A stretch of DNA of 12,378 nucleotides from Polyangiales bacterium (GTDB taxonomy: Bacteria > Myxococcota_A > Polyangia > Polyangiales > Polyangiaceae), in NCBI GenBank assembly GCA_038230375.1, contig JBBRNJ010000135.1, forward strand, positions 1-12,378, read 5' to 3'. Shown piece by piece: positions 2,761 through 4,262 of this stretch. The stretch's first letter is position 1; every line of letters starts with the position of its first letter. A program made the translations under genes and the position numbers. The notes under the pieces were generated by a model. That model was not told where the DNA came from and did not search any database. It was given only the letters and a program-made list of their open reading frames with translations.

Positions 2761-3393
2761 CTAGGCGCCCGACACGTCGATCACGCGCAGGTCGGTGACC
2801 ACCACGTTCACGGCCACGTCGTGCGGCCCCTTCGGGACCTCCATCACCAGCTGGTAGTCGAACGCGACCGCGATCGCGATCGCTGGCGGACAGAAGCGTG
2901 GCAGCGTGCGGTCGTAGTATCCAGCGCCGTAGCCGATGCGATGCCCGATCGGGTCCACGCCGATCGCCGGCACCACGATCACGTCGAGCGCGCGCGCCTC
3001 CTCCGCGTCCGGATGCGGCTCGCAGAAGCCCATGCCACGCTCCTCCAGCGCGGGAGGGTGACTGGCGAAACGAAACGTCATCACCCGCGTGTCCTGATCG
3101 ATGGTGGGATACGCAAGGCGAACGCCGCGCGCCCCAAGCGCATCCCCGAGCGGGCGCAGGTCGACTTCGCGCTTCTCCTCGATGGGCCAGAACAGCGCCA
3201 TGCTCTTTGCCCGAATGATCTCCTCGCGCGCGAGCAGCGCCGCGATGATCTTCTCCGAGCGTTGCCGACATGCCTCGACGGTGGACGTGCGACGCAGCGC
3301 ACGCAGGCGCTTTCGCAGCTCCGCCTTCACCTTGTGCGCGAGCACGCTCTCGGCGGTCGGCTCCTGATCCGCGCCATCGCGGTCGCTGGTCAT
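2761..3393 (-). CDS. ygfA: 5-formyltetrahydrofolate cyclo-ligase (MTHFS/YgfA family), 210 aa.
   Basis: The family signature GYGAGYYDR is present. The overall pattern also fits (...VDLRPL...VRLAYP...FCEP...DVIVVPAIGVDPIGHRIGYGAGYYDRTL...IAVAFDYQLV...D..VNVVVTD). The ATG at 3393-3391 overlaps the methylase stop TGA (3392-3390), an ATGA overlap. The stop is TAG at 2763-2761. Confidence 0.85.
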   Translation of the reverse strand: MTSDRDGADQEPTAESVLAHKVKAELRKRLRALRRTSTVEACRQRSEKIIAALLAREEIIRAKSMALFWPIEEKREVDLRPLGDALGARGVRLAYPTIDQDTRVMTFRFASHPPALEERGMGFCEPHPDAEEARALDVIVVPAIGVDPIGHRIGYGAGYYDRTLPRFCPPAIAIAVAFDYQLVMEVPKGPHDVAVNVVVTDLRVIDVSGA

Positions 3394-4262
3394 GTGCGCG
3401 CTGCCCGCGCGACTGCCTTCTTCTTGCTCTTCTTCTCCGGAGCAAGCAGGTTCTGGACGACGAGCTCGCTGGTGGGGCCGCGACGCTTGGTGTTGGAATT
3501 GATGGAGCGCCGGGCGAGGACGGTGGTGTGTTTGAAGCGCGCGTACAGCGCTTGCGTCTCGATCGTATCGGCGTTGGACAGGACAGCGCCGACGCCGTCG
3601 CTTCGGAGCTTCACCATGGCGTCCACGAGGCGCCTCTGATCCTTCTCGCTGAAGCCACCGCTCGCGTAGGACGTGAAATTGGCGGTCTTCGAGACGGGCA
3701 CGTAGGGCGGGTCGAAGTAGACGAAGTCCTGCGGACCAAGGCCAGGGAGCGCGGAGGCGAAGTCCCCGTGGCGAATGTCGCAGTGAGCGAGCGCCTTGGA
3801 CGCGCGGAGGAGGTTTGGCTCGTCCTTGATCTTGGGGTTCAGCATGCGCCCGAACGGCACGTTGAACTCCCCCTTGGAGTTCACGCGCCAGAGGCCGTTG
3901 AAGCACGTCTTGTTGAGATAGATCAGGCGCGCGCCGCGATCGACATCGCTCATCTTCGACGTCTTCCACGCGCGCACTTCGTAGAACTGTTCCTTGTCGT
4001 AGACGAACTCACCCAGCTTCTTGAGGAGCGCGGACACCTCGCCCTTGATGGCGCGGTAGCAGGCCACGAGCTCCTCGTTCTGGTCGACCAGGATCGCGCG
4101 CTTGAACGGACGCGGCGTCTCCGACGCGAGCGCGAAGAAGACGGCCGCACCACCGGCGAACGGCTCCACATACGTCCGCATCTTCGCGGGAAGGAGCGGA
4201 CGGAGTACTGGCACCAGCCACGATTTTCCGCCCGCCCACTTCACGATCGGCTTCACGTCCAC
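3390..4262 (-). CDS. dam: Dam-family (D12 class) N6-adenine DNA methyltransferase, probably GATC-specific, 290 aa.
   Basis: It matches E. coli Dam block by block. IVKWAGGK aligns with [18 protein letters not shown] aligns with [37 protein letters not shown] aligns with [26 protein letters not shown]. The catalytic DPPY motif is in [27 protein letters not shown] aligns with VRRSISSN. The start is GTG at 4262, with SD AAGGTGG 4 nt upstream (minus-strand sequence taAGGTGGcgcgGTG) and an in-frame TAA just before. Confidence 0.9.
   Translation of the reverse strand: [290 protein letters not shown]

What the first reader, a model, noticed from the sequence alone, without database searches (positions are those of the whole stretch)
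3390..4262. Orphan Dam ortholog in a high-GC, non-gammaproteobacterial background
The block-wise identity to E. coli Dam is clear. No restriction endonuclease or Mut/Seq-type partner is visible within 4 kb on either side. Dam-type GATC methylation outside Gammaproteobacteria usually arrives by phage or horizontal transfer. The gene's GC content here is nonetheless host-like. GATC methylation could serve as an epigenetic or regulatory signal in this organism.
Basis: partly seen in the sequence, partly recalled or inferred. Interest (0 to 1): 0.5.

Follow-up and report, generated by a model that had tools for sequence, protein, structure and literature searches.

The report
Lineage-conserved orphan Dam-family methyltransferase gene
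The gene is a real, intact Dam-family DNA adenine methyltransferase, probably specific for GATC, that has sat in the same housekeeping operon throughout a group of myxobacteria with no restriction enzyme beside it, which makes it an ordinary though previously unremarked example of a conserved "orphan" methylase.

Summary
ORF 3390-4262 on the minus strand (290 aa) is a Dam-family, D12-class N6-adenine DNA methyltransferase: TIGR00571 scores 260 bits against a cut-off of 115, and the predicted fold matches E. coli Dam and DpnM.

It is not an E. coli Dam orthologue. The equivalog model scores 153 bits against a cut-off of 441. Identity is 34% to E. coli Dam and 41% to the restriction-modification methylase DpnM.

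The catalytic DPPY motif, the SAM motif and the GATC-contact residues K9, N120, L122, R124 and P134 (E. coli numbering) are invariant in 128 close relatives. GATC specificity is therefore likely but untested.

The window is a whole 12.4-kb contig from a myxobacterial genome assembled from a metagenome. Eleven relatives at 54-93% identity, including Pendulispora albinea and a Polyangiaceae genome, all keep the order ABC transporter, DUF4340, dam, 5-formyl-THF cyclo-ligase, usually followed by Fur. No restriction or defence gene lies within 8-10 kb in any of them.

GC3, dS and dN/dS (0.13-0.15) match the neighbouring genes. The best phage and plasmid homologues reach only 43-44% identity. The gene is therefore old, vertically inherited, under purifying selection and locally orphan, not a recent mobile import.

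Conserved orphan Dam homologues outside Gammaproteobacteria are already known, so this is a new member of a known kind. Its biological role remains inferred.

The parts
3390..4262 (-). Coding sequence of the Dam-family (D12 class, alpha-group) N6-adenine DNA methyltransferase, 290 aa, GTG start, TGA stop.
   Evidence: The AlphaFold model has pLDDT 86.4. Foldseek matches E. coli Dam and DpnM with TM 0.75 normalised by query and 0.85-0.89 normalised by target.
4267..4273 (-). Shine-Dalgarno-like AAGGTGG, 4 nt upstream of the GTG start.
   Evidence: Read directly from the sequence. TAAGGTG plus the GTG start is conserved in L005 and L001.
4146..4166 (-). Motif I, E33-P-F-A-G-G-A39, the SAM-binding loop.
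   Evidence: E33, P34, F35, G37 and G38 are invariant in 128 clade members and aligned to E. coli Dam 33-39. Coordinates were checked against the sequence.
3702..3713 (-). Motif IV, D184-P-P-Y187, the catalytic site for the flipped adenine.
   Evidence: Invariant in 128 of 128 clade members, in E. coli Dam and in DpnM. The sequence GACCCGCCCTAC is read.
3843..3902 (-). DNA-recognition beta-hairpin, residues F121-M140. It carries F121 (E. coli Y119), N122 (N120), L124 (L122), R126 (R124), P136 (P134), R139 (R137) and M140 (Y138).
   Evidence: Alignment columns. Residue roles in E. coli Dam are taken from PMC4417163.
3393..3443 (-). Basic Lys/Arg/Ala-rich C-terminal tail (residues 274-290, [17 protein letters not shown]) beyond the methyltransferase core. 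It varies in length and sequence across the clade.
   Evidence: The model gives pLDDT of about 56 for the last block. The longer tail of P0004 has a weak Pfam HC2 hit.
2761..3393 (-). 5-formyltetrahydrofolate cyclo-ligase gene, immediately downstream. Its ATG overlaps the dam TGA (ATGA at 3390-3393), which suggests co-transcription and translational coupling.
   Evidence: PF01812 at 110.5 bits and TIGR02727 at 140 bits. The overlap is read. The same 4-nt overlap occurs in L001, L028 and L031, and an 8-nt overlap in L032.
4301..6358 (-). Major-vault-protein-like gene, 38 nt upstream of dam on the same strand. It is a lineage-specific insertion into the conserved operon.
   Evidence: MVP_shoulder and Vault_3 domains. 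PDB MVP chains match at E 5e-28. It is present only in the window and L005.
6489..12150 (-). Conserved upstream block on the same strand: ABC ATPase (10972-12150), ABC-2 permease (10216-10971), GldG-like auxiliary protein (8588-10219) and DUF4340 protein (6489 to about 8600).
   Evidence: Pfam hits. This block lies next to dam in 10 of the 11 relatives; in Pendulispora (L003) dam itself is inverted, and L027 lacks the block.
2336..2758 (+). Fur-family regulator gene, convergent with the cyclo-ligase gene. It belongs to the conserved neighbourhood.
   Evidence: PF01475 at 125.5 bits. Fur lies near dam and the cyclo-ligase in L001, L002, L003, L005, L027, L028, L029, L030 and L032.

Best explanation
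The gene encodes an active, SAM-dependent, alpha-group N6-adenine DNA methyltransferase of the Dam/DpnM family that most probably methylates the adenine of GATC on both strands. It is a chromosomal gene of a Sorangiineae/Polyangia-type lineage of Myxococcota. It entered that lineage long ago and has since been inherited vertically inside a conserved operon: ABC transporter genes, DUF4340, dam, then 5-formyl-THF cyclo-ligase. It is translationally coupled to the cyclo-ligase gene and has no adjacent cognate restriction enzyme. It therefore behaves as a conserved 'orphan' methylase, like the cyanobacterial Dam-like enzymes, and not as half of a mobile restriction-modification system.

Shown here: family membership, intact catalytic and recognition residues, purifying selection, conserved synteny, and absence of a local restriction gene.

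Inferred: GATC specificity, activity in the cell, orphan status across the whole genome, and any role in regulation or replication. Such a role would have to work without MutH or SeqA. Those two proteins are confined essentially to Gammaproteobacteria; this is my own knowledge and was not tested here.
For: Family and fold:
- PF02086 scores 190.7 bits, and TIGR00571 scores 260.5 bits against a cut-off of 115.
- PDB matches: DpnM at E 2e-58 and E. coli Dam at E 2e-35.
- The model has pLDDT 86.4 and superposes on E. coli Dam and DpnM at TM 0.75 (query) and 0.85-0.89 (target).

Activity and specificity:
- DPPY, EPFxGG, D60 and the E. coli-numbered GATC-contact residues K9, N120, L122, R124 and P134 are invariant in 128 clade members. 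Y119 is replaced by F, as in DpnM. Residue roles come from PMC4417163.
- The nearest characterised homologues, DpnM and the cyanobacterial M.Ssp6803III type, methylate GATC (PMC6105098).

Selection:
- dN/dS is 0.15 against L005 and 0.13 against L001.
- dS is 0.25 and 0.80 respectively, within the range of four neighbouring genes (0.18-0.31 and 0.58-0.84).

Vertical inheritance:
- Eleven contexts at 54-93% identity keep dam near the 5-FTHF cyclo-ligase gene, and ten of them also keep it next to the DUF4340/ABC block; L027 lacks that block.
- The clade is monophyletic in 100 of 100 neighbour-joining bootstraps.
- GC3 is 0.869, like the neighbours.
- The best phage hit is 43% identical and the best plasmid hit 44%.

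Orphan status:
- No restriction or defence domain was found in any neighbour with Pfam, NCBIfam or PADLOC.

Operon:
- An ATGA overlap joins dam to the cyclo-ligase gene here and in three relatives.
Against: - No methylation data exist for this organism.
- The sequence is closest to methylases that belong to restriction-modification systems: DpnM, and the PADLOC model MTase_II at 290.7 bits against oMTase at 268.6. Sequence alone therefore cannot prove orphan status.
- A cognate restriction enzyme elsewhere in the genome cannot be excluded. The window is the whole contig, and type II restriction and methylase genes can lie at least 36 kb apart (PMC4752239).
- One first-base-pair contact, E. coli Y138, is Met here. 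It is Tyr in 113 of 128 relatives.
- In another myxobacterium, Archangium gephyra, a TIGR00571 dam gene is annotated but GATC is not among the reported m6A motifs (PMC5441343). In Myxococcus hansupus only 31.9% of GATC sites were called methylated (PMC4765838).
- GATC frequency in the window is neutral (115 sites, observed/expected 1.14 under a Markov model) and does not discriminate between the readings.
Confidence: 0.7

Rival explanations
1. It is the modification half of a GATC-specific type II restriction-modification system of the DpnII or MboI kind. The endonuclease gene would lie elsewhere in the genome, outside this contig.
For: The closest solved and characterised homologue is DpnM of the DpnII system (201 bits, 41% identity). 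The best PADLOC model is MTase_II. Type II restriction and methylase genes that lie far apart have been documented (PMC4752239). The window is the whole contig, so the remainder of the genome is unseen.
Against: None of the 11 syntenic contexts has a restriction or defence gene within 8-10 kb. The gene is fixed in a housekeeping operon across deep divergence and is under purifying selection. Methylases of restriction-modification systems are rarely conserved: 9% at genus level against 57% for orphans (PMC4752239). There is no second DpnA-like methylase.
Confidence: 0.15
2. It is a Dam-family enzyme that does not methylate GATC. It might have relaxed or altered specificity such as ATC or GATN, or it might be poorly expressed or inactive in the cell.
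For: E. coli Y138, a first-base-pair contact, is Met in this protein. [quoted passage not shown] Archangium gephyra has a TIGR00571 dam but no reported GATC motif. M. hansupus shows only partial GATC methylation.
Against: R124, L122, P134, N120 and K9 (E. coli numbering), which read base pairs 3-4 and part of base pair 1, are invariant in 128 relatives. Catalytic and SAM motifs are intact. dN/dS of 0.13-0.15 argues against decay. The characterised relatives cited here, DpnM, M.MboI and M.Ssp6803III, methylate GATC.
Confidence: 0.12
3. It is a recently acquired phage or mobile-element methylase, an anti-restriction passenger gene, that happens to sit in this contig.
For: Dam-family genes are common in phages and plasmids: 661 phage and 2440 plasmid records have homologues. 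The MVP-like gene next to it is a lineage-specific insertion.
Against: The best phage and plasmid identities are 43-44%. GC3 and dS equal those of the neighbours. The same chromosomal slot is occupied in 11 relatives down to 54% identity. There are no integrase, transposase, tRNA or phage genes in the window.
Confidence: 0.03

Closest known systems
DpnM (M1.DpnII) of Streptococcus pneumoniae, PDB 2DPM, and the M.MboIA-type GATC methylases of restriction-modification systems
   Same: It is the best solved-structure match: E 2e-58, 41% identity over 277 residues. It shares the alpha-group motif order, DPPY, the FNGL(Y/W)RVN hairpin and the predicted fold. Its known target is G6mATC.
   Different: DpnM is encoded beside a second methylase and the DpnII endonuclease in a mobile cassette; this context is my own knowledge and was not tested here. 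The window gene has no such partner locally and sits in a conserved housekeeping operon. It also carries a basic C-terminal tail and has Met in place of the Tyr equivalent to E. coli Y138.
Cyanobacterial orphan Dam-like methylases (M.Ssp6803III / Slr1803; DmtA of Anabaena)
   Same: They are chromosomal, lineage-conserved, Dam-like orphan GATC methylases outside Gammaproteobacteria (PMC6105098; PMC4752239). Cyanobacterial homologues are 42-48% identical to the window protein and were among the nearest non-myxobacterial relatives found in the genome scan.
   Different: They belong to a different phylum and a different gene neighbourhood. The cyanobacterial enzymes have proven activity, are essential, and are linked to HIP1 (GCGATCGC). 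None of this is known for the myxobacterial clade.
E. coli Dam (gammaproteobacterial orphan Dam; PDB 2G1P)
   Same: Same family and fold, with the same catalytic residues and most of the same GATC-contact residues. Both are orphans with host-like composition.
   Different: Identity is only 33.6%. The equivalog model NF008152 scores 153 bits against a cut-off of 441. The operon differs: E. coli dam lies in aroK-aroB-damX-dam-rpe-gph-trpS (my own knowledge). MutH and SeqA, the readers of hemimethylated GATC, are not expected outside Gammaproteobacteria, so the downstream biology cannot be assumed.
Phage Dam methylases (T4 Dam; Streptococcus phage methylases)
   Same: Same superfamily and fold. 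T4 Dam matches at TM of about 0.65-0.67.
   Different: T4 Dam scores only 34 bits. The best phage homologue is 43% identical. The window has no phage context.

Membership tests
Dam family / D12-class alpha-group N6-adenine DNA methyltransferase (PF02086, TIGR00571) | Profile score above the curated cut-off over the full length | tested here: met
   PF02086 scores 190.7 bits (cut-off 22) over profile positions 1-253 of 253. TIGR00571 scores 260.5 bits (cut-off 114.85) over 1-267 of 267.
Dam family / D12-class alpha-group N6-adenine DNA methyltransferase (PF02086, TIGR00571) | SAM-binding motif I (FxGxG) lies N-terminal to the catalytic motif IV (DPPY), with the recognition hairpin between them | tested here: met
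   EPFAGGA at residues 33-39, the hairpin at 121-140 and DPPY at 184-187. All core residues are invariant in 128 relatives.
Dam family / D12-class alpha-group N6-adenine DNA methyltransferase (PF02086, TIGR00571) | Three-dimensional fold of E. coli Dam, DpnM and T4 Dam | tested here: met
   The AlphaFold model has pLDDT 86.4 and pTM 0.85. Foldseek top hits are 4rtn, 2dpm and 2g1p at E of about 1e-24 to 1e-23, with TM 0.75 (query) and 0.85-0.89 (target).
GATC-specific Dam/DpnM methylases | Residues that read GATC in E. coli Dam: K9, Y119, N120, L122, R124, P134, Y138 | tested here: inconclusive
   K8, N122, L124, R126 and P136 are conserved and invariant in the clade. Y119 is replaced by F121, as in DpnM. 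Y138 is replaced by M140, whereas 113 of 128 relatives have Tyr. This favours GATC but is not proof.
GATC-specific Dam/DpnM methylases | Demonstrated N6-methylation of adenine in GATC | not testable with these tools
   This needs a DpnI/MboI digest or SMRT or nanopore methylome data. No such data for this clade were found in the literature searches.
Orthologue of E. coli Dam (NCBIfam equivalog NF008152 / PRK10904) | Score above the equivalog cut-off | tested here: not met
   153.3 bits against a cut-off of 441. Identity is 33.6%. By identity and bit score the protein is closer to DpnM and to the cyanobacterial and archaeal Dam-like proteins than to E. coli Dam; in the tree E. coli Dam was imposed as the outgroup.
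Orthologue of E. coli Dam (NCBIfam equivalog NF008152 / PRK10904) | Functional partners MutH and SeqA that read hemimethylated GATC | tested here: not met
   Neither is present in the window or in the 8-10 kb flanks of 11 relatives. Absence across the whole genome could not be tested.
Type II restriction-modification system (DpnII/MboI type) | Cognate endonuclease gene adjacent to the methylase gene | tested here: not met
   No restriction or defence hit was found in any neighbour with Pfam, NCBIfam or PADLOC, in the window or in 11 syntenic contexts. A distant endonuclease cannot be excluded because the window is the whole contig.
Conserved orphan methyltransferase family (sensu Blow et al. 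2016, PMC4752239) | Orthologues conserved among related taxa, unlike methylases of restriction-modification systems | tested here: met
   The clade is monophyletic in 100 of 100 bootstraps. Eleven of eleven sampled contexts are syntenic, spanning 54-93% identity and including Pendulisporaceae and Polyangiaceae. The fraction of species that carry the gene was not measured.
Conserved orphan methyltransferase family (sensu Blow et al. 2016, PMC4752239) | No cognate endonuclease anywhere in the genome, and a small set of reproducibly unmethylated sites | not testable with these tools
   This requires whole-genome scans and methylome data.
Phage or plasmid-borne Dam | Close homologues in mobile elements, a mobile-element context, or atypical composition | tested here: not met
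   The best phage hit is 43.2% identical and the best plasmid hit 44.1%. There are no mobile-element genes or tRNA genes. GC3 is host-like.

The most novel reading that the evidence does not exclude
A whole lineage of Myxococcota (Sorangiineae/Polyangia-type, including Pendulispora and Polyangiaceae) maintains a vertically inherited orphan GATC adenine methylase. It is hard-wired into an operon with a folate one-carbon enzyme and lies next to Fur. On this reading, genome-wide G6mATC would be a core epigenetic mark in these large-genome, developmentally complex bacteria. It would be read by factors other than MutH and SeqA, for example for replication timing, cell-cycle control or developmental gene control. 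This would be a third major bacterial 'Dam world' beside Gammaproteobacteria and Cyanobacteria.
Probability: 0.3. Interest if true: 0.55.

Novelty: new member of a known kind. Interest (0 to 1): 0.3.

Why it matters
If the enzyme is active, GATC methylation is a conserved chromosomal trait of a group of myxobacteria valued for natural products and studied for multicellular behaviour.

There would be practical consequences. It bears on the choice of dam-positive or dam-negative E. coli donors and of restriction enzymes for genetic work in Sorangiineae. It also bears on the interpretation of long-read methylation signals when binning metagenomes.

Conceptually, it would add a lineage in which an orphan Dam must act without MutH or SeqA, which is useful for asking what GATC methylation is for in general.

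The gene is nevertheless recognised by standard annotation pipelines. Conserved orphan Dam homologues outside Gammaproteobacteria are already documented in Cyanobacteria and Archaea (PMC4752239). The finding is therefore incremental.

Tried and rejected
- An exact look-up of the window protein found no contig on record. Context therefore had to come from relatives.
It returned only one myxobacterial genome (L005) plus cyanobacteria, archaea and others. The distribution across named Myxococcota genomes could therefore not be quantified.
- Cluster-member names gave almost no taxonomy.
- I looked for a 6S RNA or another RNA family because ssrS is linked to ygfA in E. coli (my own knowledge). Rfam found nothing at gathering thresholds, and no tRNA genes were found.
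- The sigma-70 promoter scan found nothing, and the terminator-like hits were not above shuffled expectation.
- GATC counts are neutral: observed/expected is 1.14 under a Markov model. The threefold excess over the mononucleotide expectation disappears under the Markov (trinucleotide-based) model. This neither supports nor refutes methylation or restriction pressure.
- PADLOC could not separate restriction-modification methylases from orphans (290.7 against 268.6 bits).
- The unknown 541-556-aa ORFs between dam and the cyclo-ligase gene in L027 and L029 were checked as possible endonucleases. They are 39% identical to each other, have what looks like an N-terminal hydrophobic (possibly membrane-spanning) segment, and have no Pfam, NCBIfam or PADLOC hit. 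I rejected them as cognate restriction enzymes, and they are absent from the window.
- Literature searches for GATC or Dam methylation in Sorangium or Polyangia found nothing.
It was rerun with database proteins only.
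Full report
**1. What is at the coordinates**

The window has 67% GC and is densely coding. ORF 3390-4262 lies on the minus strand, with a GTG start at 4262 and a TGA stop at 3392-3390, and encodes 290 aa. An AAGGTGG ribosome-binding site sits 4 nt upstream of the start. Both the site and the GTG start are conserved in the two closest relatives.

The protein matches Pfam PF02086 (D12-class N6-adenine methyltransferase) end to end at 190.7 bits. It matches NCBIfam TIGR00571 'dam' at 260.5 bits against a cut-off of 114.85.

Against solved structures:

| Structure | Score |
|---|---|
| DpnM (2dpm) | E 1.8e-58, 201 bits |
| E. coli Dam (2g1p) | E 2e-35, 125 bits |
| T4 Dam | 34 bits |

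An AlphaFold model built from 40 clade sequences has pLDDT 86.4 and pTM 0.85. Its best Foldseek hits are E. coli Dam and DpnM, with TM 0.75 normalised by query and 0.85-0.89 normalised by target.

**2. It is a Dam-family enzyme but not an E. coli Dam orthologue**

The E. coli Dam equivalog model NF008152 scores 153 bits against a cut-off of 441. Identity is 33.6% to E. coli Dam and 41.2% to DpnM.

I built a neighbour-joining tree of 41 sequences with E. coli Dam as the outgroup.
- The window protein and all its syntenic relatives form one clade, monophyletic in 100 of 100 bootstraps.
- By identity and bit score the clade is nearer to DpnM and to Dam-like proteins of cyanobacteria, Bathyarchaeia, Clostridiales and Leptospiraceae (41-48% identity) than to E. 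coli Dam (33.6%). Because E. coli Dam was imposed as the outgroup, the tree does not test this independently.

**3. Activity and specificity**

I aligned 128 relatives with E. coli Dam and DpnM.
- The SAM motif (E33-P-F-x-G-G), D60 and the catalytic D184-P-P-Y187 are invariant.
- So are the equivalents of E. coli K9, N120, L122, R124 and P134.
- Y119 is Phe, as in DpnM.
- Y138 is Met in the window, whereas 113 of 128 relatives have Tyr.

According to PMC4417163, the residue roles in E. coli Dam are:

| Residue | Role |
|---|---|
| R124 | Reads the G of the fourth base pair |
| L122, P134 | Read the third base pair |
| Y119 | Intercalates |
| N120 | Hydrogen-bonds |
| K9, Y138 | Read the first base pair, a contact that is not conserved across the family |

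The characterised relatives DpnM, M.MboI and M.Ssp6803III all make G6mATC. GATC specificity is therefore the best inference. It remains unproven, and first-base discrimination may be looser.

dN/dS is 0.15 against L005 and 0.13 against L001, which shows purifying selection.

**4. Surroundings and orphan status**

The window equals a whole NCBI contig. All of its sizeable ORFs are accounted for:

| Coordinates | Strand | Gene |
|---|---|---|
| 1-1224 | - | Partial lipoprotein-like gene |
| 1225-2274 | - | PAP2 phosphatase |
| 2336-2758 | + | Fur |
| 2761-3393 | - | 5-formyl-THF cyclo-ligase |
| 3390-4262 | - | dam |
| 4301-6358 | - | MVP-like gene |
| 6489 to about 8600 | - | DUF4340 protein |
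| 8588-10219 | - | GldG-like auxiliary protein |
| 10216-10971 | - | ABC-2 permease |
| 10972-12150 | - | ABC ATPase |

None of the neighbours tested against PADLOC matches a defence or restriction model, and Pfam shows no restriction, MutH or SeqA domain in any gene of the window. The dam stop and the cyclo-ligase start overlap as ATGA at 3390-3393, which suggests translational coupling.

**5. Comparative context**

Eleven relatives with long flanks were examined:

| Locus | Identity to window Dam | Source |
|---|---|---|
| L005 | 93% | 'Myxococcales bacterium' metagenome-assembled genome |
| L001, L002 | 86% | JGI metagenomes |
| L003 | 58% | Pendulispora albinea, complete genome (Sorangiineae, Pendulisporaceae) |
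| L004 | 57% | Polyangiaceae metagenome-assembled genome |
| L027-L032 | 56-60% | Metagenomic and genome-assembly contigs, not named taxonomically |

All eleven keep dam close to the 5-FTHF cyclo-ligase gene, usually with Fur next. Ten of them also keep dam next to the DUF4340/ABC transporter block; L027 lacks that block within its flank.
- Occasionally a single lineage-specific gene is inserted on either side of dam.
- dam is inverted in Pendulispora.
- The 4-nt dam/cyclo-ligase overlap recurs in L001, L028 and L031.
- No context contains a restriction endonuclease.

Divergence of Dam tracks that of its neighbours. At the protein level Dam is 57-58% identical, the cyclo-ligase 56%, and the ABC ATPase 55-62%. 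dS agrees in the same way. GC3 is 0.869, within the neighbours' range of 0.79-0.93. The best phage homologue is 43% identical and the best plasmid homologue 44%.

The gene is therefore an old, vertically inherited resident of this lineage and not a recent mobile import.

**6. What cannot be settled**

- Whether a cognate GATC endonuclease exists elsewhere in the genome. Distant type II pairs are known (PMC4752239).
- Whether GATC is actually methylated.
- What the mark would be used for.

Published myxobacterial methylomes are equivocal, and they come from other suborders. Myxococcus hansupus shows m6A at 31.9% of GATC sites with no assigned type II methylase (PMC4765838). Archangium gephyra has a TIGR00571 dam, but GATC is not among its reported motifs (PMC5441343). 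GATC frequency in the window is uninformative: 115 sites, observed/expected 1.14 under a Markov model.

**7. Mechanism proposed**

Shown: an intact alpha-group methylase with a DNA-reading hairpin.

Inferred:
- It flips the target adenine into the DPPY pocket and transfers methyl from SAM at GATC on both strands after replication.
- It is co-expressed with the upstream transporter genes and with the cyclo-ligase.
- The variable basic C-terminal tail (residues 274-290, longer and histone-H1-like in P0004) may add non-specific DNA affinity.
- The coupling to a folate one-carbon enzyme could tie methylase expression to one-carbon and SAM supply, or it may simply be conserved gene order. This last point is speculative.

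**8. Novelty and score**

Standard pipelines already name homologues 'DNA adenine methylase' or 'Dam family site-specific DNA-(adenine-N6)-methyltransferase'. Blow et al. (PMC4752239) described conserved orphan Dam homologues in Gammaproteobacteria, Cyanobacteria and two archaeal classes. No myxobacterial family was mentioned there or in my other searches.

This is a new member of a known kind: a lineage-conserved orphan Dam homologue, here documented by synteny. Interest is modest (0.3). It would rise only if methylome or genetic data showed a core epigenetic role.

Noticed in passing
window 4301-6358 (-): A 685-aa major-vault-protein-like gene lies 38 nt upstream of dam. It has Pfam MVP_shoulder (81.6 bits) and Vault_3 domains, matches eukaryotic MVP structures at E 5e-28 over residues 200-606, and has an Ala/Glu/Arg-rich C-terminal region. 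It is present only here and in L005 (96% identity) and absent from that slot in the other relatives, so it is a recent insertion into the conserved operon. Bacterial MVP homologues, including myxobacterial ones, are already described (bioRxiv 10.1101/872010).
   Followed up: partly
window 12177-12375: A 12-nt tandem repeat (CGACCTCGACCT, about 16.6 copies, 85% matches) lies at the very end of the contig. On the minus strand it reads as (Glu-Val)n, in frame with and upstream of the ABC ATPase ORF with no intervening stop. It is probably the reason the assembly broke here. The true ATPase start is likely further downstream, since homologues align from about residue 53.
   Followed up: partly
window 3393-3443 (-); P0004 / L001 10820-10990: Dam proteins of this clade carry variable Lys/Arg/Ala-rich C-terminal tails beyond the methylase core. 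Here the tail is 17 aa ([17 protein letters not shown]). In P0004 it is about 55 aa with TASKK-type repeats and a weak Pfam HC2 (histone-like) hit. It may be a non-specific DNA-binding appendage.
   Followed up: partly
window 3390-3393; L001 10987-10990; L028 8813-8816; L031 8882-8885; L032 8887-8894: The dam stop codon overlaps the start codon of the 5-formyl-THF cyclo-ligase gene (ATGA), and the overlap is conserved in several relatives. This links a SAM-consuming methylase to a folate one-carbon enzyme. In E. coli the cyclo-ligase gene (ygfA) is instead linked to 6S RNA (my own knowledge). No 6S RNA was detected here.
   Followed up: partly
window 6489-12150 (-): A four-gene block (ABC ATPase, ABC-2 permease, GldG-like auxiliary protein with DUF7088, and a roughly 700-aa DUF4340 protein) lies next to dam in 10 of the 11 sampled relatives (all but L027). 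It resembles the gliding-associated GldA/F/G-type transporter (resemblance from my own knowledge). Its function here is unknown.
   Followed up: no
window 1-1224 (-): A partial ORF with a lipoprotein-like signal (MMRRSLGLVLMGLVAIACSS...) runs off the left end of the contig. It is 73% identical to a 427-aa protein of L001 that has no Pfam domain.
   Followed up: partly
L027 8827-10452 (-); L029 8869-10539 (-): In two relatives, an ORF of 541-556 aa with what looks like an N-terminal hydrophobic (possibly membrane-spanning) segment is inserted, on the opposite strand, between dam and the cyclo-ligase gene. The two copies are 39% identical to each other and have no Pfam, NCBIfam or PADLOC hit. 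Function is unknown, and the ORF is absent from the window.
   Followed up: partly
L003 17561-20492 (Pendulispora albinea CP089984): A GmrSD_N-domain gene (type IV, modification-dependent restriction-like) and a HipA-like kinase gene lie about 7 kb from dam in Pendulispora. There is no equivalent in the window. It is not a GATC endonuclease.
   Followed up: no
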